This document shows positions 14,709 to 60,010 of a DNA stretch of 64,000 nt, one piece after another. The notes beneath the pieces were generated by a model. The model had not been told where the DNA came from, searched no databases, and saw only the letters and a list, made by a program, of their open reading frames with translations. The DNA is taken from NCBI RefSeq assembly GCF_036507355.1, contig NZ_AP027877.1, one strand, 5' to 3'. Each line of letters opens with the position of its first letter. Positions within the stretch are counted from its first letter, which is position 1. The DNA is from Escherichia coli (GTDB taxonomy: Bacteria > Pseudomonadota > Gammaproteobacteria > Enterobacterales > Enterobacteriaceae). A program made the position numbers and the translations under genes.

Positions 14709-14949
14709 TAGCAATACTCTTCTGATTTTGAGAATTGTGACTTTGGAAGATTGTAGCGCCAGTCACAGAAAAATGTGATGGTTTTAGTGCCGTTAGCGTA
14801 ATGTTGAGTGTAAACCCTTAGCGCAGTGAAGCATTTATTAGCTGAACTACTGACCGCCAGGAGTGGATGAAAAATCCGCATGACCCCGTCGTTGACAACC
14901 GCCCCGCTCACCCTTTATTTATAAATGTACTACCTGCGCTAGCGCAGGC

Positions 14950-15200
14950 CAGAAGAGGCGCGTTGCCCAAGTAACGGTGTTGGAGGAGCCAGTCCTGTGA
15001 TAACACCTGAGGGGGTGCATCGCCGAGGTGATTGAACGGCTGGCCACGTTCATCATCGGCTACAGGGGCTGAATCCCCTGGGTTGTCACCAGAAGCGTTC
15101 GCAGTCGGGCGTTTCGCAAGTGGTGGAGCACTTCTGGGTGAAAATAGTAGCGAAGTATCGCTCTGCGCCCACCCGTCTTCCGCTCTTCCCTTGTGCCAAG
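14950..15200 (+). promoter_or_regulatory. lysine riboswitch (L-box) in lysC 5' leader
   Basis: Long structured leader upstream of lysC containing AGAGGCGC...GGAGGAGCC...CTGTGATAAC...GAGGGGG motifs characteristic of the lysC LYS element. Confidence 0.8.
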
Positions 15201-42247: not shown

Positions 42248-42367
42248 ATGCCTGGCAGTTCCCTACTCTCGCATGGGGAGACCCCACACTACCATCGGCG
42301 CTACGGCGTTTCACTTCTGAGTTCGGCATGGGGTCAGGTGGGACCACCGCGCTACGGCCGCCAGGCA
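42248..42367 (-). rRNA. rrfE: 5S ribosomal RNA
   Basis: Reverse complement matches canonical E. coli 5S (TGCCTGGCGGCCGTAGCGCGGTGGTCCCACCTGACCCCATGCCGAACTCAG...CATGCGAGAGTAGGGAACTGCCAGGCAT). Confidence 0.97.
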
Positions 42368-42460
42368 AATTCTGTTTTATCAGACCGCTTCTGCGTTCTG
42401 ATTTAATCTGTATCAGGCTGAAAATCTTCTCTCAATCCGCCAAAACAGCTTCGGCGTTGT

Positions 42461-45363
<2,903 letters not shown>

Positions 45364-45556
45364 TCACAACCCGAAGATGTTTCTTTCGATTCATCATCGT
45401 GTTGCGAAAATTTGAGAGACTCACGAACAACTCTCGTTGTTCAGTGTTTCAATTTTCAGCTTGATCCAGATTTTTAAAGAGCAAATATCTCAAACATCAC
45501 CCGAAGATGAGTTTTGAGATATTAAGGTCGGCGACTTTCACTCACAAACCAGCAAG

Positions 45557-45632
45557 TGGCGTCCCCTAGGGGATTCGAACCCCTGTTACCGCCGTGAAAG
45601 GGCGGTGTCCTGGGCCTCTAGACGAAGGGGAC
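45557..45632 (-). tRNA. gltV: tRNA-Glu (UUC) in 16S-23S spacer
   Basis: Reverse complement = GTCCCCTTCGTCTAGAGGCCCAGGACACCGCCCTTTCACGGCGGTAACAGGGGTTCGAATCCCCTAGGGGACGCCA. Confidence 0.95.
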
Positions 45633-45717
45633 GTATCAGTCTGCTTCGCAAGACGCCTTGCTTTTCACTTTCTATCAGACAATCTGTGTGAGCACTACAA
45701 AGAACGCTTCTTTAAGG

Positions 45718-47259
<1,542 letters not shown>

Positions 47260-47875: not shown

Positions 47876-49465
47876 ATGCAACAACGTCGTCCAGTCCGCC
47901 GCGCTCTGCTCAGTGTTTCTGACAAAGCCGGTATCGTCGAATTCGCCCAGGCACTTTCCGCACGCGGTGTGGAGCTGCTGTCTACAGGGGGCACTGCCCG
48001 TCTGTTAGCAGAAAAAGGTCTGCCGGTAACCGAAGTTTCCGATTACACCGGTTTCCCGGAGATGATGGATGGACGCGTGAAGACCCTACATCCGAAAGTA
48101 CATGGTGGCATTCTGGGCCGTCGCGGTCAGGACGATGCCATTATGGAAGAACATCAGATCCAGCCTATCGATATGGTGGTTGTTAACCTGTATCCGTTCG
48201 CCCAGACCGTGGCCCGTGAAGGCTGCTCGCTGGAAGATGCGGTTGAGAACATCGATATCGGCGGCCCGACCATGGTGCGCTCCGCCGCTAAGAACCATAA
48301 AGATGTCGCAATCGTGGTGAAGAGCAGCGACTACGACGCCATTATTAAAGAGATGGATGCCAACGAAGGATCGCTGACGCTTGCAACCCGTTTCGACCTC
48401 GCCATCAAAGCCTTCGAACACACTGCCGCCTACGACAGCATGATTGCCAACTACTTCGGCAGCATGGTTCCGGCTTACCACGGTGAAAGCAAAGAAGCCG
48501 CCGGTCGCTTCCCACGCACGCTGAACCTGAACTTCATTAAGAAGCAGGATATGCGTTACGGCGAGAACAGCCACCAGCAGGCTGCCTTCTATATAGAAGA
48601 GAATGTGAAAGAAGCCTCCGTTGCTACCGCAACCCAGGTTCAGGGTAAAGCCCTCTCTTATAACAACATCGCCGATACCGATGCGGCGCTGGAGTGCGTG
48701 AAAGAGTTCGCCGAGCCGACATGTGTGATTGTGAAGCACGCCAACCCTTGCGGCGTGGCTATCGGCAATTCCATTCTTGATGCTTACGATCGCGCGTACA
48801 AAACCGACCCAACCTCCGCATTCGGCGGCATCATTGCCTTTAACCGCGAGCTGGATGCGGAAACCGCACAGGCCATCATTTCTCGTCAGTTTGTCGAAGT
48901 GATTATTGCGCCTTCCGCCAGCGAAGAAGCCCTGAAAATCACCGCCGCCAAGCAGAACGTACGCGTTCTGACCTGCGGTCAGTGGGGCGAGCGTGTTCCG
49001 GGTCTTGATTTCAAACGCGTGAACGGCGGTCTGCTGGTTCAGGATCGTGACCTGGGGATGGTCGGTGCGGAAGAACTGCGCGTCGTCACCCAACGTCAGC
49101 CGACCGAACAGGAACTGCGTGATGCGCTGTTCTGCTGGAAAGTGGCGAAGTTCGTGAAATCCAATGCTATCGTCTATGCCAAAAACAATATGACCATCGG
49201 TATTGGCGCGGGCCAGATGAGCCGCGTGTACTCCGCGAAAATTGCCGGTATTAAAGCTGCCGATGAAGGTCTGGAAGTGAAAGGTTCCTCTATGGCCTCC
49301 GATGCATTCTTCCCGTTTCGTGACGGTATTGATGCTGCCGCTGCCGCAGGCGTGACCTGTGTGATCCAGCCTGGCGGTTCTATTCGTGATGACGAAGTGA
49401 TTGCCGCTGCCGACGAGCACGGTATTGCAATGCTCTTCACCGATATGCGCCACTTCCGCCATTAA
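47876..49465 (+). CDS. purH: bifunctional AICAR transformylase / IMP cyclohydrolase PurH (529 aa)
   Basis: ORF track; [51 protein letters not shown]... Confidence 0.97.
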
Positions 49466-49476
49466 TGGAGCGACAG

Positions 49477-50766
49477 ATGAAAGTATTAGTGATTGGTAAC
49501 GGCGGGCGCGAGCACGCGCTGGCCTGGAAAGCGGCCCAGTCGCCGCTCGTTGAAACGGTTTTTGTTGCTCCGGGTAATGCAGGCACTGCACTGGAACCTG
49601 CGCTGCAAAACGTCGCCATCAATGTGACCGATATTCCGGCACTGCTGAGCTTTGCGCAGAATGAAAAAATTGACCTGACCATCGTTGGCCCGGAAGCGCC
49701 ACTGGTGATTGGCGTCGTTGACGCGTTCCGCGCAGCAGGTTTGAAAATATTCGGACCGACTGAGGGCGCCGCGCAACTCGAAGGTTCTAAAGCGTTTACC
49801 AAGGATTTCCTGGCACGCCACCACATCCCAACAGCGGAATACCAGAACTTCACCGAGATTGAGCCTGCGCTGGTGTATCTGCGCGAGAAAGGTGCACCGA
49901 TCGTTATCAAAGCAGACGGTCTGGCGGCGGGTAAAGGCGTAATCGTCGCGATGACACTCGAAGAAGCCGAAGCGGCCGTTCACGACATGCTGGCGGGTAA
50001 CGCTTTTGGCGACGCAGGTCACCGCATTGTTATCGAAGAATTCCTCGATGGCGAGGAAGCGAGCTTTATTGTGATGGTTGACGGCGAACACGTGTTACCG
50101 ATGGCCACCAGTCAGGATCATAAACGCGTGGGTGATAAGGACACCGGGCCAAACACAGGCGGAATGGGCGCTTACTCTCCTGCGCCGGTAGTGACTGATG
50201 AAGTTCATCAGCGCACGATGGAGCGCATCATCTGGCCAACCGTGAAAGGCATGGCAGCGGAAGGTAACACGTATACCGGTTTTCTGTATGCGGGCCTGAT
50301 GATCGACAAACAGGGCAATCCGAAGGTTATCGAATTCAACTGCCGCTTTGGCGATCCGGAAACCCAGCCGATTATGCTGCGCATGAAGTCCGATCTGGTT
50401 GAGCTTTGCCTGGCGGGCTGTGAAGGCAAGCTGGACGAAAAAAAATCCGAGTGGGATGAACGCGCATCGCTAGGTGTGGTGATGGCTGCGGGCGGTTATC
50501 CGGGTGATTATCGCAAGGGCGATGTGATCCACGGCCTGCCGCTGGAAGAAGTGGCAGGCGGCAAAGTGTTCCACGCGGGCACAAAACTGGCGGATGACGA
50601 GCAGGTGGTAACCAGCGGCGGGCGCGTACTGTGCGTCACCGCGCTGGGTCATACCGTGGCAGAAGCGCAGAAACGCGCCTACGCCTTAATGACCGATATC
50701 CACTGGGATGATTGCTTCTGCCGGAAAGATATCGGTTGGCGCGCCATCGAACGCGAGCAGAACTAA
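49477..50766 (+). CDS. purD: phosphoribosylamine-glycine ligase PurD (429 aa)
   Basis: ORF 49465..50766; start taken at MKVLVIGNGGREHALAWKAAQSPLVE after GGAG. Confidence 0.96.
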   Translation: MKVLVIGNGGREHALAWKAAQSPLVETVFVAPGNAGTALEPALQNVAINVTDIPALLSFAQNEKIDLTIVGPEAPLVIGVVDAFRAAGLKIFGPTEGAAQLEGSKAFTKDFLARHHIPTAEYQNFTEIEPALVYLREKGAPIVIKADGLAAGKGVIVAMTLEEAEAAVHDMLAGNAFGDAGHRIVIEEFLDGEEASFIVMVDGEHVLPMATSQDHKRVGDKDTGPNTGGMGAYSPAPVVTDEVHQRTMERIIWPTVKGMAAEGNTYTGFLYAGLMIDKQGNPKVIEFNCRFGDPETQPIMLRMKSDLVELCLAGCEGKLDEKKSEWDERASLGVVMAAGGYPGDYRKGDVIHGLPLEEVAGGKVFHAGTKLADDEQVVTSGGRVLCVTALGHTVAEAQKRAYALMTDIHWDDCFCRKDIGWRAIEREQN

Positions 50767-52088
50767 CGCGACAGTTTTGCCAATAGCGTTTTGCGCGTGA
50801 TCCCTAACTGACGGGCGGCTTCGGTTTTGTTGCCGCCCGTTTTCTCCAGTGCCGCCAGAATCACTTCTTTTTCGACTTCCACCAGCGGCTGAATATCCTG
50901 ACTTTGCCCCAGCGGGATCGGCGTACCGGCAATCGCCAGCGGCAGCTCGCGTTCGGAAATATATTCCCCGGTCAGCAGCACCACCGCCCGTTCCACCGCG
51001 TTTTCCAGTTCACGAATATTTCCCGGCCAGTCGTAGTGGATCAGCAAATCCATCGCCTGTGGCGTAAAGCCTTTTACCGCCTTGCGATTACGCTCGGCAA
51101 AGCGCTGAAGAAAATGGCCAGCCAGCAGAGGGATATCTTCCCTCCGTTGCCGCAGCGATGGTACTTCAATCGCCACCACATTCAGGCGATAGTAGAGATC
51201 CTGGCGAAAACGCCCGGCATTCACCTCTGCGGCAAGATCGCGATGGGTCGCCGCAATCAGCCGGACATCAACCGAGATAGTCTGGTTGCTACCGACACGC
51301 TGAACTTCGCGCTCCTGAATCGCACGCAGCAGACGCACCTGCATCATCGGCGAGATATCGCCAATTTCATCGAGAAACAGCGTGCCGCCGTCCGCCTCAA
51401 CAAAGCGCCCTTCCCGGCGTTTATCGGCTCCGGTAAACGCCCCTTTTTCGTGACCGAACAATTCAGATTCCAGCAAGGATTCGTTAAGTGCCGCACAGTT
51501 GAGCGTTACCAGCGGTTTTTCGCTACGTGCGCTACTGGCGTGAATCGCCTTGGCGACCAGCTCTTTACCGGTGCCGGAATCGCCGTGGATCAGCACCGTG
51601 GCTTCCGATGGCGCGACGAGGGAGATTTCACTGAGCAGGTGTTGCATCGCCGGGCTTTTACCGACCATACCGAACTGGCTGGCAGTCACCGCAGGTGTTT
51701 CAGCATCAATACTGTGTGTATGCGCGAGCGCCTTTTCCAGCGTCGCCTGTAGGTTATCGAAATCCAGCGGCTTGATGAGATAATCCAGCGCCCCAGTTTT
51801 CAGTGCCTCTACCGCCGTCTCGACGCTGGAGTACGCAGTCATAATCAGCACCGGAATTGCCGGGTTTAACGCTTTGATCTCTTTCAGCGTGGCGATGCCG
51901 TCCATCTCCGCCATTCGCACATCGCAAAGCACAAGATCAAAAACCTGTTCCCGCACCTGCTCCAGCGCCTGTCGCCCGCTGTTCGCCAGCGCGACGTTAT
52001 AGCCCCAGCCTCGCAGTAAAGCCTGCAAAATAGTGCAGTGGCTAATGTCATCATCCACCACCAGAATATCGATATTATCGTGCGTCAT
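50763..52088 (-). CDS. zraR: sigma54-dependent response regulator ZraR/HydG (441 aa)
   Basis: ORF track; receiver domain, AAA+ sigma54-activator domain (GESGTGKE, GAFTGA), C-terminal HTH. Confidence 0.95.
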
Positions 52089-52293
52089 CCTTGTGGGTCC
52101 TTACGCGTAATATTGACCGGAAGCCAGAGGGTGAACGTTGCGCCTTTTCCCTTCTGGCTTGCGACCTGAATTGTACCACCGTGTTGTTCAACAATATTAT
52201 GCACGACCGCCAGCCCCAATCCGGTGCCTTCGGCTTTGGTGGTGAAGTACGGAGTGAAGATGGCTTCAAGCTGATCTGGGTAATGACTCCAAC

Positions 52294-52797
52294 TTATTGA
52301 TAGTGTTTTATGTTCAGATAATGCCCGATGACTTTGTCATGCAGCTCCACCGATTTTGAGAACGACAGCGACTTCCGTCCCAGCCGTGCCAGGTGCTGCC
52401 TCAGATTCAGGTTATGCCGCTCAATTCGCTGCGTATATCGCTTGCTGATTACGTGCAGCTTTCCCTTCAGGCGGGATTCATACAGCGGCCAGCCATCCGT
52501 CATCCATATCACCACGTCAAAGGGTGACAGCAGGCTCATAAGACGCCCCAGCGTCGCCATCGTGCGTTCACCGAATACGTGCGCAACAACCGTCTTCCGG
52601 AGCCTGTCATACGCGTAAAACAGCCAGCGCTGGCGCGATTTAGCCCCGACATAGCCCCACTGTTCGTCCATTTCCGCGCAGACGATGACGTCACTGCCCG
52701 GCTGTATGCGCGAGGTTACCGACTGCGGCCTGAGTTTTTTAAGTGACGTAAAATCGTGTTGAGGCCAATGCCCATAATGCGGGCTGTTGCCCGGCAT
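52294..52797 (-). CDS. insB: IS1 InsB (167 aa; expressed as InsAB' transposase by -1 frameshift at the A6C motif)
   Basis: ORF track; [51 protein letters not shown]...; overlaps insA 3' end containing AAAAAAC slippery site. Confidence 0.95.
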
Positions 52798-52991
52798 CCA
52801 ACGCCATTCATGGCCATATCAATGATTTTCTGGTGCGTACCGGGTTGAGAAGCGGTGTAAGTGAACTGCAGTTGCCATGTTTTACGGCAGTGAGAGCAGA
52901 GATAGCGCTGATGTCCGGCGGTGCTTTTGCCGTTACGCACCACCCCGTCAGTAGCTGAACAGGAGGGACAGCTGATAGAAACAGAAGCCAC
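52716..52991 (-). CDS. insA: IS1 InsA (91 aa)
   Basis: ORF track; [43 protein letters not shown]... Confidence 0.95.
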
Positions 52992-54270
52992 TGGAGCACC
53001 TCAAAAACACCATCATACACTAAATCAGTAAGTTGGCAGCATCACCGCTGATCTGCCGCAATTCCCTTACCGCTGTCGGTAACGCTGATTTTCACGCCCG
53101 CGCCGCTTTCGCTGGCCGTCACGCTAATCACGCCATGCTGACCAATCGCCTGAATAGCATTGAGATAGAGATTCAACAGGACCTGAGTCAGCCTGTCCGG
53201 ATCGGCCTGAATTTCCGGTAATGTGTCGTTGGCGGTAAAGCGTAACTGGATCTCCCGGCTGTTTGCATCCTGGCTTACCAGCTGTAATGAGTGGTTAATC
53301 AGAGTGTTGAGGTCCACCGCCTGCAAAGCCAGATGCGTTGGCTTAACCAGTTCCAGCAGCTCGCTTACCACGCGGTTTAATCGGTCAGCTTCTTTCGCCA
53401 TCACCTGCGCCAGTTGATGCGCTTCTCCCCCTGCAGGCGCGCGCTCGGCAAAGTATTTCGCCAGTCCTTTAATCGAGGAAAGTGGGTTACGGATTTCGTG
53501 GGCAACGCCTGCCGCAAGATGCCCCAGCGCCACCAGCTTCTCTTTGCGCTTCATTTCATCTTGTAGAAGCTGGCGCGAGCGCAGATAGCGGCGATACCAG
53601 AAGAATGACAATACGCTTGCCAGCAAGACCGTCGCCAGGGCGAAGAGGATAATCAGGGTGTTTCTCTGCTCACGATCTTCGGCACTCACAATATTACTGG
53701 CGTCGAAAGCGATGAAAATTGCTTGTGGTGTCGCGGCATACTGCTGCATATGGCGCATCCGGTGCATTCCAGCAGCAAACATCGGTTGAAACTGGCGATA
53801 AATTTCCAGAACAGGCTCGCCGTCTGCGCTATCGATCCGCCGCCACACTTCTTCATCTCCCGGATGTAACTGCTGCATTTCCTGCGGGGAATAAAGCTGT
53901 TTTCCCACCATGCCGGAGTTGCTATGCATCACGATTGTTCCTTGTTCATCCGTGACCGCAAACCAACGTACTCCAGGCTGCCCGGCTATTTCTTCCAGTA
54001 AGGCCTGCTGCTGCGCATGATGCATGCGCATCCCCATGCCGACGCGCGAGCCGGATTCAAGAGCGCGAATAAGTACACTGCCTTTTTCCAGCAGCGTTTG
54101 TCTGGCGGCGGCAGTCTCGCGCCCATAATCGCGAATCACCGTCACCGCAAACAACCCTACCAGCCCAACAATGACCACGGGGAGGATCGCGCTTAACCAT
54201 TTAGCTAAGGAGTCTTTAGAACGTTGCATAAAACGCATCTTCTTCTTTGCCTGTTCATCCCTTTTTACCA

Positions 54271-54286
54271 GCAGAAATCATGCCAT
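54271..54286 (-). promoter_or_regulatory. sigma54 (-24/-12) promoter of zraSR
   Basis: Minus strand TGGCAT-N6-TGCT with GG/GC spaced as in the TGGCAC-N5-TTGCA consensus. Confidence 0.65.
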
Positions 54287-54336
54287 CTTTTATCGCCACC
54301 GACTCTGCGCTGTAACACAAAGACTTAAGTTTCAAT

Positions 54337-54382
54337 GAGTAAAAATGACTCGCTACCCACAGCAGGCGAGTCATTTTTACTC
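54337..54382. promoter_or_regulatory. ZraR enhancer-binding palindrome between divergent zraP and zraSR
   Basis: Perfect 17-bp inverted repeat GAGTAAAAATGACTCGC-N12-GCGAGTCATTTTTACTC centred between the two sigma54 promoters. Confidence 0.7.
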
Positions 54383-54424
54383 GTTTATCATGCCAGATTG
54401 CCCGTCATATCAGCGTTTCGTTGT

Positions 54425-54440
54425 TGGCACGGAAGATGCA
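54425..54440 (+). promoter_or_regulatory. sigma54 (-24/-12) promoter of zraP
   Basis: TGGCACGGAAGATGCA about 35 bp upstream of the zraP start. Confidence 0.75.
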
Positions 54441-54475
54441 ATACCCGAAGTAAGACAACCACTGGAAGATTAACC

Positions 54476-54895
54476 ATGAAACGGAACACGAAAATTGCCC
54501 TGGTGATGATGGCGCTTTCAGCAATGGCGATGGGATCGACATCTGCATTTGCTCACGGCGGACACGGTATGTGGCAGCAAAATGCCGCGCCTTTGACCAG
54601 CGAACAACAGACAGCGTGGCAGAAAATCCATAATGACTTTTACGCTCAAAGCAGCGCACTGCAACAGCAACTGGTGACGAAGCGTTATGAATACAATGCC
54701 CTGTTAGCCGCGAACCCACCGGATAGCAGCAAAATTAACGCGGTCGCCAAAGAGATGGAGAATTTGCGTCAGTCGTTAGATGAGTTACGGGTGAAACGGG
54801 ATATTGCGATGGCTGAAGCGGGTATTCCGCGCGGTACCGGAATGGGTTACGGCGGCTGCGGTGGTGGCGGTCATATGGGTATGGGCCACTGGTAA
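54476..54895 (+). CDS. zraP: zinc-resistance-associated periplasmic protein ZraP (139 aa)
   Basis: ORF 54335..54895; start taken at MKRNTKIALVMMALSAMAMGSTSAFAHGGHGMW (signal peptide); Gly/His-rich C-tail. Confidence 0.9.
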   Translation: MKRNTKIALVMMALSAMAMGSTSAFAHGGHGMWQQNAAPLTSEQQTAWQKIHNDFYAQSSALQQQLVTKRYEYNALLAANPPDSSKINAVAKEMENLRQSLDELRVKRDIAMAEAGIPRGTGMGYGGCGGGGHMGMGHW

Positions 54896-58481: not shown

Positions 58482-59255
58482 TCACTCATACTCTGCCCGA
58501 CACATCGCCACCGTATCTTCTATCAGACGGCGCGCTACGGTGCCGGGCGGCGGGAGTAACGGCAAATCGTCATAGCGATACCAGTTCGCCTCGAGCAATT
58601 CTTTCGGGTCGATCACGATGTCGCCGCTGTCATATTCCGCCATAAACGCGGTCATTAAAGACTGAGGAAACGGCCACGGCTGGGAAGTCACATAACGCAA
58701 GTGTTTAACTTTAATTCCGCTCTCTTCCATCACTTCCCGCGCGACCGCCTGCTCGAGGGTTTCGCCCACTTCGACGAATCCGGCAAGTACAGTATGGACA
58801 CCGTTACGATGGCGGGTATGCTGGGCGAGGAGGATCGAATCATCGCGACGGATGGCAACAATAATGCAGGGGGCGATTTGCGGGTAGTAACGCTCACGGC
58901 AATGGCTGCACAGCATCGCCCATTCGGTTTTGCTTGGATACATTTCATGCCCGCAGTAACCACAGTATTTATGCGATCGGTAAAACTCCGCCAGTTGCAC
59001 GCCACGTCCGGCCAGTTGAAACAGCCCAACATCGAGATCAATGACCTGACGTACCGACCCCATATCGTGACGCCGCTGCTGTTGTATTAACCAAACAGGT
59101 TCCCCCTGCCATTCGCCGATTTGTAGTGCGCGCTGACCCACAAGATCGAAATTTGCCGCTTCGCCATATGGCAATTCTCCCTTCGGCAACCATAATTTTT
59201 GTTCATGGCTGACGACCCACCAGCCGTGATCTAATTTTTCAATTATACGATCCAT
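58482..59255 (-). CDS. nudC: NADH pyrophosphatase NudC (Nudix, 257 aa)
   Basis: ORF track; zinc-ribbon CxxC...CxxC and Nudix box [22 protein letters not shown]. Confidence 0.95.
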
Positions 59256-59826: not shown

Positions 59827-59879
59827 GTTCTGCGCTGTTAACGCGTAATTTACATTCAACGCCCCGTTTGTGGGGGCTA

Positions 59880-60010
59880 ATTTCTTGTCGGAGTGCCTTA
59901 ACTGGCTGAGACCGTTTATTCGGGATCCGCGGAACCTGATCAGGCTAATACCTGCGAAGGGAACAAGAGTTAATCTGCTATCGCATCGCCTTTGCGGCGA
60001 TCGTCTCTTG
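59880..60010 (+). promoter_or_regulatory. TPP (THI-box) riboswitch in thiC leader
   Basis: ...GGAGTGCCTTAACTGGCTGAGACCGTTTATTCGGGATCCGCGGAACCTGATCAGGCTAATACCTGCGAAGGGAACAAGAG contains the conserved CTGAGA and ACCTGATC...GGCTAATACC THI-box elements upstream of thiC. Confidence 0.85.

What the first reader, a model, noticed from the sequence alone, without database searches (positions are those of the whole stretch)
54271..54440. zraP-zraSR divergent sigma54 control region is fully intact although its sensor is disrupted
Both sigma54 -24/-12 elements (TGGCACGGAAGATGCA for zraP; TGGCATGATTTCTGCT on the opposite strand for zraSR) and the perfect 17-bp inverted repeat GAGTAAAAATGACTCGC-N12-GCGAGTCATTTTTACTC between them are preserved. 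Together with intact zraR and zraP ORFs this suggests the IS1 hit is evolutionarily recent; the regulatory DNA has not yet decayed. It also provides a clean natural test of whether ZraR has kinase-independent activity.
Basis: partly seen in the sequence, partly recalled or inferred. Interest (0 to 1): 0.3.

Follow-up and report, generated by a model that had tools for sequence, protein, structure and literature searches.

The report
Known zraP-zraSR promoter region, recent IS1
This is the well-known E. coli control region between zraP and zraSR, unchanged because an IS1 element jumped into the sensor gene zraS so recently that no decay could have occurred; it is an ordinary finding.

Summary
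Both sigma54 -24/-12 elements (54270-54285 minus strand, 54425-54440 plus strand) and the perfect 17-bp-N12-17-bp palindrome (54337-54382) are present. They are base-for-base identical to E. coli K-12, where sigma54 and ZraR binding have been mapped experimentally. An intact 768-bp IS1 (52279-53046, 9-bp target duplication GCTGATCTG) cuts zraS after codon 397 of 458. zraR (441 aa) and zraP (139 aa) are full length.

The insertion is recent, but the proof is not the intact motifs. Four public genomes are 99.95-100% identical over about 8.7 kb and have an empty site with a whole zraS. Their control region is identical to the window's. With 2 private SNPs in 8.7 kb, about 0.04 changes are expected in 170 bp, so intactness says nothing about selection or activity.

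The region is not reference-like overall. It differs from K-12 at 16 of 237 positions and is below 95% identity to all 5,419 complete E. coli genomes. One change weakens the zraP ribosome-binding site. All of this predates the IS1.

The "clean test of kinase-independent ZraR" does not hold. IS1 lies upstream of zraR in the same operon, and the truncated ZraS keeps its sensor and phospho-acceptor domains. Known system, low interest.

The parts
54270..54285 (-). sigma54 -24/-12 promoter element of zraSR (TGGCATGATTTCTGCT; GG at 54284-54283, GC at 54272-54271). The inferred transcription start is near 54259, about 21 nt upstream of the zraS ATG.
   Evidence: Identical to K-12 and to the sigma54 ChIP-seq motif ATGGCATGATTTCTGCT assigned to zraS in PMC4591121. 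16/16 in all Escherichia sampled and in Citrobacter, 15/16 in Salmonella.
54337..54353 (.). Left arm of the ZraR upstream activator palindrome (GAGTAAAAATGACTCGC). It contains an internal dyad GAGT-N7-ACTC centred at 54344.
   Evidence: Identical to K-12. 17/17 in all Escherichia sampled and 15-16/17 in Salmonella, Citrobacter and Pluralibacter. The inner 10 nt were used to retrieve the other species, so only the outer 7 nt are an unbiased test.
54354..54365 (.). 12-nt spacer of the palindrome (TACCCACAGCAG). Its sequence is free to vary but its length is conserved.
   Evidence: the spacer varies within E. coli and is only 2-7/12 identical in other genera, yet it is 12 nt in all six enterobacterial hits.
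54366..54382 (.). Right arm of the ZraR palindrome (GCGAGTCATTTTTACTC). Its internal dyad is centred at 54375, 31 bp (three helical turns) from the left one.
54425..54440 (+). sigma54 -24/-12 promoter element of zraP (TGGCACGGAAGATGCA). The inferred transcription start is near 54451, about 25 nt upstream of the zraP ATG.
   Evidence: Identical to K-12 and to the ChIP-seq motif TTGGCACGGAAGATGCA assigned to zraP. 15-16/16 in Salmonella and Citrobacter, while the rest of the spacer is 40-49% identical.
54464..54468 (+). zraP Shine-Dalgarno sequence, GGAAG here against GGAGG in all other sequences compared (G to A at 54467).
   Evidence: The change is shared by relatives with an intact zraS, so it predates IS1.
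54476..54895 (+). zraP, 139 aa, intact (periplasmic Metal_resist/CpxP-like accessory protein).
   Evidence: The 139-aa length is a common E. coli allele.
53047..54238 (-). zraS 5' part: codons 1-397, then one foreign Arg codon and a TGA inside the IS1 end. It keeps the sensor, transmembrane segments, HisKA (H247), N-box and G1 box. It loses the F and G2 boxes and the last 61 residues.
52279..53046 (-). IS1, 768 bp, intact: both terminal inverted repeats, insA of 91 aa, the A6C frameshift motif and the insB frame of 167 aa. Its transposase genes run in the same direction as zraS and zraR.
   Evidence: 98.8-99.6% identical to annotated IS1A/IS1B copies.
52270..52278 (.). Target-site duplication GCTGATCTG. 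The second copy is at 53047-53055.
   Evidence: The sequence is present once in the empty-site relatives. Removing IS1 plus one copy restores a 458-aa ORF.
52085..52278 (-). zraS 3' remnant (codons 398-458), no longer translated. Its stop overlaps the zraR start (ATGA).
50763..52088 (-). zraR, 441 aa, intact NtrC-family enhancer-binding response regulator, located downstream of the IS1.
   Evidence: Receiver aspartate context, Walker A and B, GAFTGA and the arginine finger are all present. The protein is identical to that of relatives with an intact zraS.

Best explanation
The stretch 54270-54440 is the canonical enterobacterial zraP-zraSR control region. Two divergent sigma54 promoters flank one upstream activator sequence. 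That sequence is made of two ZraR dimer sites 31 bp apart (three helical turns), centred about 91 bp from the zraP start and about 100 bp from the zraS start.

In a functional cell, ZraS phosphorylates ZraR. ZraR then assembles on the palindrome and, through DNA looping and ATP hydrolysis, opens the sigma54 closed complexes at both promoters.

In this strain an intact IS1 transposed into zraS at codon 397. It removed the F and G2 boxes of the ATP-binding domain. The event is private to this strain and very recent, so the control DNA is simply the unaltered ancestral allele. Its integrity is the null expectation and carries no information about present function.

The following part is inferred, not shown. 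The circuit is now probably locked off: there is no cognate kinase, and IS1 lies between PzraS and zraR, so zraR transcription is polar-reduced and uncoupled from its own positive feedback. The control DNA itself remains competent.
For: Identity and function.
- All 66 core bases are identical to K-12 MG1655.
- Both sigma54 motifs match the ChIP-seq-mapped sites for zraP and zraS (PMC4591121).
- ZraR binds this spacer as its single high-affinity genomic SELEX target (PMC8249747) and in ChIP-exo (PMC7657598).
- Divergent sigma54 promoters controlled by ZraR are also described for Salmonella (PMC4987338).

Constraint.
- The promoter elements are 15-16/16 identical in Salmonella and Citrobacter, while the remaining spacer is 40-49% identical.
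- The 16 substitutions against K-12 all miss the 66 core bp (P about 0.005).

Recency.
- L003-L006 (three NCBI assemblies and one Logan assembly) carry the empty site with an intact 458-aa zraS.
- L004 and L006 are 100% identical to the window from 53047 onward, L004 as far as 56865 and L006 to its contig end at 55704. Only 2 private window SNPs occur in about 8.7 kb (48088, and 52011 which is synonymous in zraR).
- The 9-bp target duplication is perfect, and precise excision in silico restores the ORF.
- IS1 is itself intact.
- The junction is absent from 5,426 complete E. coli genomes, from GTDB species representatives and from metagenome contigs. The fusion protein is not on record.

Selection until recently. 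zraS and zraR differences from other E. coli are mostly synonymous, for example 18 synonymous to 4-5 non-synonymous codons.

Loss of kinase. HATPase_c is cut at profile position 53 of 111, and the F and G2 boxes are lost.

No substitute promoter. No sigma70-like promoter was detected between the IS1 end and zraR.
Against: - No expression data exist for this strain.
- IS1 polarity (classical gal and lac IS1 mutations, an internal Rho-dependent terminator, InsA binding at the ends) is taken from established knowledge. It was not tested here, and my literature search for it returned nothing usable.
- Some read-through from PzraS or from the IS1 insA promoter, which points toward zraR, could still give ZraR.
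- ZraR might be phosphorylated by acetyl phosphate, which is used in vitro, or by non-cognate kinases.
- The original footprinting paper (Leonhartsberger et al. 2001) is not held in the library. The exact ZraR box is therefore inferred from the palindrome, its conservation and my recollection of that abstract.
Confidence: 0.9

Rival explanations
1. The control region is intact because it is still under selection. ZraR continues to be made and activated without ZraS, by acetyl phosphate or a non-cognate kinase, so zraP is still regulated through this DNA.
For: - zraR and zraP are intact.
- ZraR is activated with acetyl phosphate in vitro (table in PMC8249747).
- The ZraR iModulon is active under several non-zinc conditions (PMC7657598).
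- The IS1 insA promoter and zraS read-through point toward zraR.
Against: Only about 0.04 substitutions are expected in the 170 bp since the split from empty-site relatives (2 SNPs in 8.7 kb). Conservation therefore cannot indicate selection. IS1 lies upstream of zraR in the operon. PzraS needs active ZraR. The truncated ZraS keeps the HisKA domain, which in this kinase family carries phosphatase activity.
Confidence: 0.08
2. The IS1 insertion is old, and the motifs have persisted by chance or by residual constraint. This is a pseudogenised system in slow decay, as in Shigella-like reductive evolution.
For: The intergenic region is unusually diverged: 6.8% from K-12 and below 95% identical to all complete E. 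coli. It also has a weakened zraP Shine-Dalgarno sequence.
Against: Every one of those changes is shared with four relatives that have an uninterrupted zraS and an empty site. The target duplication is perfect and IS1 is intact. There is only one IS1 in 64 kb. zraS and zraR substitutions are mostly synonymous.
Confidence: 0.02
3. The insertion is not a feature of the natural population. It arose during laboratory passage of the sequenced isolate, or it is present in only part of the culture.
For: The junction is found nowhere else. Divergence from empty-site relatives is near zero. IS1 is active in culture (established knowledge).
Against: There is no direct evidence either way. A clean 9-bp duplication shows real transposition rather than mis-assembly.
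Confidence: 0.1

Closest known systems
E. coli K-12 zraP-zraSR (formerly yjaI-hydHG) intergenic region: divergent sigma54 promoters plus the ZraR/HydG enhancer (Leonhartsberger et al. 2001; Bonocora et al. 2015)
   Same: Same genes and synteny (purD-zraR-zraS / zraP-yjaH-hupA), the same 237-bp spacer length, and identical sigma54 elements and palindrome arms with the same 12-nt spacing.
   Different: There are 16 substitutions outside the core elements. These include a 7-in-10-bp cluster at 54295-54304 and GGAGG to GGAAG in the zraP ribosome-binding site. The zraS allele is the 458-aa type, not the K-12 465-aa type (84% identity in the sensor half). zraS is interrupted by IS1.
NtrC enhancer at glnAp2 (two dimer sites about three helical turns apart, upstream of a sigma54 promoter)
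   Same: Two dyad-symmetric sites lie 31 bp centre to centre, about 90-100 bp upstream of the sigma54 promoters. The activator is an NtrC-family receiver-AAA+-HTH_8 protein with GAFTGA.
   Different: One enhancer serves two divergent promoters. The two sites are themselves mirror images, forming a 46-bp palindrome. The signal is zinc or envelope stress through ZraS, not nitrogen.
Sporadic IS1 knock-outs of the zra locus in other E. coli (KKa014 and KFu021: zraP::IS1; A37: zraR::IS1)
   Same: A single IS1 inserted in one gene of the same three-gene system in an otherwise intact locus.
   Different: A different gene and site are hit. None of the 5,426 complete genomes has this zraS junction.

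Membership tests
zraP-zraSR ZraR-dependent divergent sigma54 control region | Lies between divergently transcribed zraP and zraSR orthologues | tested here: met
   ORFs and Pfam domains. Synteny with K-12 and other E. coli.
zraP-zraSR ZraR-dependent divergent sigma54 control region | Two sigma54 -24 GG / -12 GC elements, one facing each gene, matching the experimentally bound K-12 sites | tested here: met
   16/16 identity to K-12 for both elements. They match the ChIP-seq motifs in PMC4591121.
zraP-zraSR ZraR-dependent divergent sigma54 control region | ZraR upstream activator palindrome between the promoters | tested here: met
   17+17 bp perfect with a 12-nt spacer. Identical to K-12 and conserved across genera.
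zraP-zraSR ZraR-dependent divergent sigma54 control region | ZraR binding and zinc-inducible, rpoN-dependent transcription in this strain | not testable with these tools
   Shown only for K-12 and Salmonella in the literature.
NtrC-family bacterial enhancer-binding response regulator (ZraR) | Receiver domain with phospho-acceptor Asp, AAA+ sigma54-interaction domain with Walker A and B, GAFTGA and arginine finger, and a C-terminal HTH_8 | tested here: met
   Pfam hits to Response_reg, Sigma54_activat, AAA_lid_14 and HTH_8. Motifs found at residues 54, 169, 216, 237 and 295.
HisKA-type sensor histidine kinase (functional ZraS) | Complete catalytic ATP-binding domain (N, G1, F and G2 boxes) following the H-box | tested here: not met
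   The product ends after residue 397. HATPase_c is matched only to profile position 53 of 111, and the F (402-405) and G2 (412-417) boxes are missing.
IS1 insertion sequence | 768 bp, roughly 23-bp imperfect terminal inverted repeats, insA and insB' with the A6C frameshift site, and a 9-bp target duplication | tested here: met
   98.8-99.6% identical to annotated IS1A/IS1B copies.

The most novel reading that the evidence does not exclude
The co-oriented IS1 uncouples zraR from its own sigma54 autoregulation. It supplies low constitutive transcription through insA-promoter read-through. Together with loss of the kinase, and possibly retention of a phosphatase-competent ZraS stump, this would give a naturally rewired Zra circuit. 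Its zraP output would reveal kinase-independent (acetyl-phosphate or cross-talk) activation of ZraR. Alternatively, loss of ZraS is itself the selected trait; a zraS deletion raises colanic acid production (PMC12604771).
Probability: 0.06. Interest if true: 0.3.

Novelty: already known. Interest (0 to 1): 0.08.

Why it matters
It matters little. The region is a textbook sigma54/enhancer-binding-protein control region whose elements were already mapped in K-12. Single IS1 knock-outs of zra genes occur sporadically in E. coli.

The useful outcomes are methodological.
- Intact motifs next to a fresh IS insertion are the null expectation, not evidence about function.
- Empty-site sister genomes date the event far better than motif preservation does.
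- An insertion upstream of the regulator in the same operon cannot serve as a clean kinase-null.

The strain, paired with its empty-site relatives, would be a convenient near-isogenic natural pair for anyone studying Zra signalling. An engineered non-polar zraS deletion in K-12 answers the same question more cleanly.

Tried and rejected
- Motif statistics. The sigma54 pattern alone is at chance level in the window: 3 matches against 1.9 expected. I therefore rejected it as stand-alone evidence.
- Global MAFFT alignment of the 9-kb locus to K-12 mis-scored regions around the zraS indel. I replaced it with per-feature blastn.
- Searches for the same insertion elsewhere all found nothing. These covered the fusion protein, the right-end (IRR) junction in GTDB species representatives and the left-end (IRL) junction in metagenome contigs.
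- The top complete-genome hits with IS1 in the locus turned out to be insertions in zraP, zraR or nfi.
- A 52-bp megablast of the palindrome against all E. coli was uninformative. The 28-nt word requirement fails across the polymorphic spacer, so only 886 genomes were returned.
- The Leonhartsberger 2001 paper is not held. A literature search for IS1 polarity returned nothing relevant, so that step rests on established knowledge.
- I considered a Shigella origin because of the IS1. I rejected it: there is only one IS1 in 64 kb, and the locus has E. coli synteny at about 97.5% identity.
- I looked for IHF-like sites in the diverged patch by eye and found no convincing match.
- The third sigma54-like match, in nudC antisense, is not among the reported ChIP-seq sites.

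Full report
**1. What is in the sequence**

- TGGCACGGAAGATGCA lies on the plus strand at 54425..54440.
- The inverted repeat is GAGTAAAAATGACTCGC (54337-54353), then 12 nt, then GCGAGTCATTTTTACTC (54366-54382).

The repeat finder reports the repeat as the only inverted repeat in 54200-54500: 20 nt at 95%, with a 12-nt gap. A scan for TGGCA-N7-TGCW finds three matches in 64 kb against 1.9 expected, and 32 of 100 shuffles reach three. The promoter motifs are therefore not significant as bare patterns. Their meaning comes from context.

The ORF list gives the surrounding genes.
- zraP runs plus-strand at 54476-54895 (139 aa).
- zraS starts on the minus strand at 54238.
- zraR is on the minus strand at 50763-52088 (441 aa).

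**2. The disruption**

An intact IS1 occupies 52279-53046 (768 bp). It is flanked by a perfect 9-bp target duplication, GCTGATCTG, at 52270-52278 and 53047-53055.

The element has both terminal repeats, a 91-aa insA, the A6C frameshift motif and a 167-aa insB frame. It is 98.8-99.6% identical to annotated IS1A/IS1B copies. Its genes run in the same direction as zraS and zraR. It is the only IS1 in the window.

The zraS product ends after 397 native residues plus one Arg.
- It keeps the sensor domain, the membrane segments, the HisKA domain with H247, the N box and the G1 box.
- It loses the F and G2 boxes and the last 61 residues.
- Pfam matches HATPase_c only to profile position 53 of 111.

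Removing IS1 and one duplication copy in silico restores a 458-aa ORF ending in ...[11 protein letters not shown].

ZraR has the receiver, Sigma54_activat, AAA-lid and HTH_8 domains. It also has Walker A and B, GAFTGA and the arginine finger. ZraP has a complete Metal_resist domain.

**3. Comparison with a functional reference**

Aligned to K-12 MG1655, the 237-bp spacer has the same length. All 66 bases of the two promoter elements and the two palindrome arms are identical.

The literature confirms what these elements are.
- The two motifs are the sigma54 ChIP-seq sites assigned to zraP (TTGGCACGGAAGATGCA) and zraS (ATGGCATGATTTCTGCT) in K-12 (PMC4591121).
- ZraR binds this spacer as its single high-affinity genomic SELEX target, in 81 of 86 clones (PMC8249747).
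- ZraR also binds here in ChIP-exo (PMC7657598).
- The same divergent sigma54 arrangement is described for Salmonella (PMC4987338).

The original footprinting paper is not in the library. From memory, its abstract describes two inverted repeats separated by a 14-bp spacer. That fits the internal structure seen here. Each arm contains its own dyad, GAGT-N7-ACTC. The centres are at 54344 and 54375, 31 bp or three helical turns apart. This is an NtrC-like arrangement of two dimer sites on one face of the helix. The centre of the palindrome lies about 91 bp from the inferred zraP start and about 100 bp from the inferred zraS start.

**4. Constraint on the elements**

I retrieved orthologous regions with the inner palindrome core as the search pattern. 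The hits were Citrobacter youngae, Pluralibacter, S. enterica arizonae and diarizonae, E. whittamii and E. coli E69. I aligned them with nine diverse E. coli.

The promoter elements were not part of the search pattern. They are 15-16/16 identical in Salmonella and Citrobacter, while the rest of the spacer is 40-49% identical. The spacer of the palindrome varies freely in sequence but is always 12 nt. S. arizonae carries the same A to G change in both arms and so keeps perfect symmetry.

Within the window lineage, the 16 substitutions against K-12 all fall outside the 66 core bases (P about 0.005). This shows long-term constraint. It says nothing about the period since the IS1 hit.

**5. How recent is the insertion?**

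The exact ZraR protein of the window is encoded on contigs of three NCBI assemblies (GCA_905398585.1, GCA_047852605.1, GCA_016660925.1) and on Logan assemblies. In all of them zraS is an uninterrupted 458-aa gene.

These loci are 99.95-100% identical to the window on both sides of the IS1, and the 9-bp target is present once. L004 and L006 are identical to the window from 53047 onward, L004 as far as 56865 and L006 to its contig end at 55704. In both, that stretch covers the whole control region and zraP.

The window has just two private differences in about 8.7 kb. One is at 48088 in purH. The other is at 52011 and is a synonymous CGC to CGA change in zraR codon 26.

The junction is absent from the other collections searched.
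- No complete E. coli genome has it. The top hits have IS1 in zraP, zraR or nfi instead.
- It is not in GTDB species representatives.
- It is not in metagenome contigs.
- The fusion protein is not on record.

The insertion is therefore private and very young. At commonly quoted short-term E. coli clock rates this would mean decades to a few centuries; that figure is my inference, not a computed result.

At 2.3e-4 differences per site, about 0.04 changes are expected in the 170-bp region and about 0.015 in the 66 core bases. Intact motifs are therefore the null expectation. They support neither selection nor activity.

**6. The region is not simply reference-like**

The spacer is only 93.2% identical to K-12. 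It is 90-95% identical to all 5,419 complete E. coli genomes that contain it, and none reaches 95%. By contrast, zraR, zraP and yjaH differ from K-12 by 1.3-2%.

Seven of the 16 changes sit in 10 bp (54295-54304), just upstream of the -24 element of PzraS. The E69 and E. whittamii sequences mostly carry the common E. coli state there, so the window state is derived.

One change (54467) turns the zraP Shine-Dalgarno GGAGG into GGAAG. The G is invariant at that position in every other sequence that covers it, including Salmonella and Citrobacter.

All of these changes are shared with the intact-zraS relatives, so they predate IS1. The coding differences in zraS and zraR from other E. coli are mostly synonymous, which argues that the system was under purifying selection until the hit. 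The cause and the effect of the clustered changes remain unexplained.

**7. Mechanism and consequences**

What is shown: the DNA elements for sigma54 holoenzyme and ZraR are intact, ZraR and ZraP can be made in principle, and the kinase domain of ZraS is destroyed.

What is inferred: the circuit is probably off, for four reasons.
- PzraP and PzraS require activated ZraR, and the cognate kinase is gone.
- IS1 lies between PzraS and zraR. IS1 insertions are classically polar in both orientations, and InsA binds the element's ends (established knowledge, not tested here).
- The zraS stop and zraR start overlap (ATGA), so translational coupling is lost.
- The simple scan found no sigma70-like promoter between the IS1 end and zraR. 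The only hit was the insA promoter inside the left end of IS1.

The retained sensor-HisKA stump could still bind or dephosphorylate ZraR. ZraS belongs to the bifunctional kinase/phosphatase class (PMC12314577).

For these reasons the strain is not a clean test of kinase-independent ZraR activity. Any result would confound kinase loss, regulator dosage and a possibly active stump.

**8. Rivals**

- Continued selection through kinase-independent ZraR activity cannot be excluded. It gains no support from conservation, and I give it about 0.08.
- An old insertion in slow decay is refuted by the empty-site relatives (about 0.02).
- An origin in laboratory culture, or a subpopulation, is possible and untestable here (about 0.1).

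**9. Verdict**

This is a correct observation of an already known regulatory region beside a private, very recent IS1 insertion. Novelty: already known. Interest: low.

Noticed in passing
window 49477-50766 (+), purD: The intact purD is at most 90.0% identical to purD in all 5,420 complete E. coli genomes. It is 91% identical to E. whittamii and 85% to Citrobacter, with no gaps. The flanking purH (97.3%) and zraR (98.4%) are ordinary. This is a sharply bounded foreign allele, probably imported by recombination from an unsampled Escherichia lineage, and it is shared by the intact-zraS relatives.
   Followed up: partly
window 54295-54304 and 54267-54268: There is a cluster of derived substitutions, 7 in 10 bp (GCCACCGACT against AGCGCTTACC in other E. 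coli), just upstream of the -24 element of PzraS. It makes the spacer less than 95% identical to every complete E. coli genome. Cause and effect are unknown. It predates the IS1.
   Followed up: partly
window 54467: A G to A change turns the zraP Shine-Dalgarno GGAGG into GGAAG. The G is invariant at that position in every other sequence that covers it, including Salmonella and Citrobacter. The change is shared with relatives that have an intact zraS.
   Followed up: partly
window 53056-54238 (zraS codons 1-397) versus L002/L007: The zraS sensor half is dimorphic in E. coli. The K-12 465-aa allele is only 84% identical (with 13 gap openings) to the 458-aa allele carried here and in many strains. 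The last 194 bp of zraS and all of zraR are about 98% identical.
   Followed up: no
window 54830-54895 (zraP 3' end): ZraP is 139 aa here against 141 aa in K-12. One Gly-Met unit is lost and there is an A to T change in the Gly/Met-rich C-terminus. The 139-aa length is a common length polymorphism in E. coli.
   Followed up: partly
L001 4826-5594; L034 2000-2767: Independent IS1 insertions hit other genes of the same locus in complete E. coli genomes: zraP in KKa014 and KFu021 (river water, Japan) and zraR in A37 (calf). This suggests the Zra system is dispensable and sporadically lost.
   Followed up: partly
L021 3545-3594; L027 5940-5990: S. enterica arizonae has the same A to G change in both palindrome arms (GGGTAAAAATGACTCGC / GCGAGTCATTTTTACCC), which preserves perfect dyad symmetry. 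S. enterica diarizonae changed only one arm.
   Followed up: no
window 58853-58868 (+): A third sigma54-like match (TGGCAACAATAATGCA) lies antisense inside nudC. It is at chance level and is not mentioned in the E. coli sigma54 ChIP-seq paper's text.
   Followed up: partly
window 42250-47259 (-), 14945-15141 (+), 59879-59979 (+): Ordinary landmarks of this chromosomal region are present: an rrn operon (16S, tRNA, 23S, 5S), a lysine riboswitch, the TPP riboswitch before thiC, and two naRNA4/REP-type elements.
   Followed up: no
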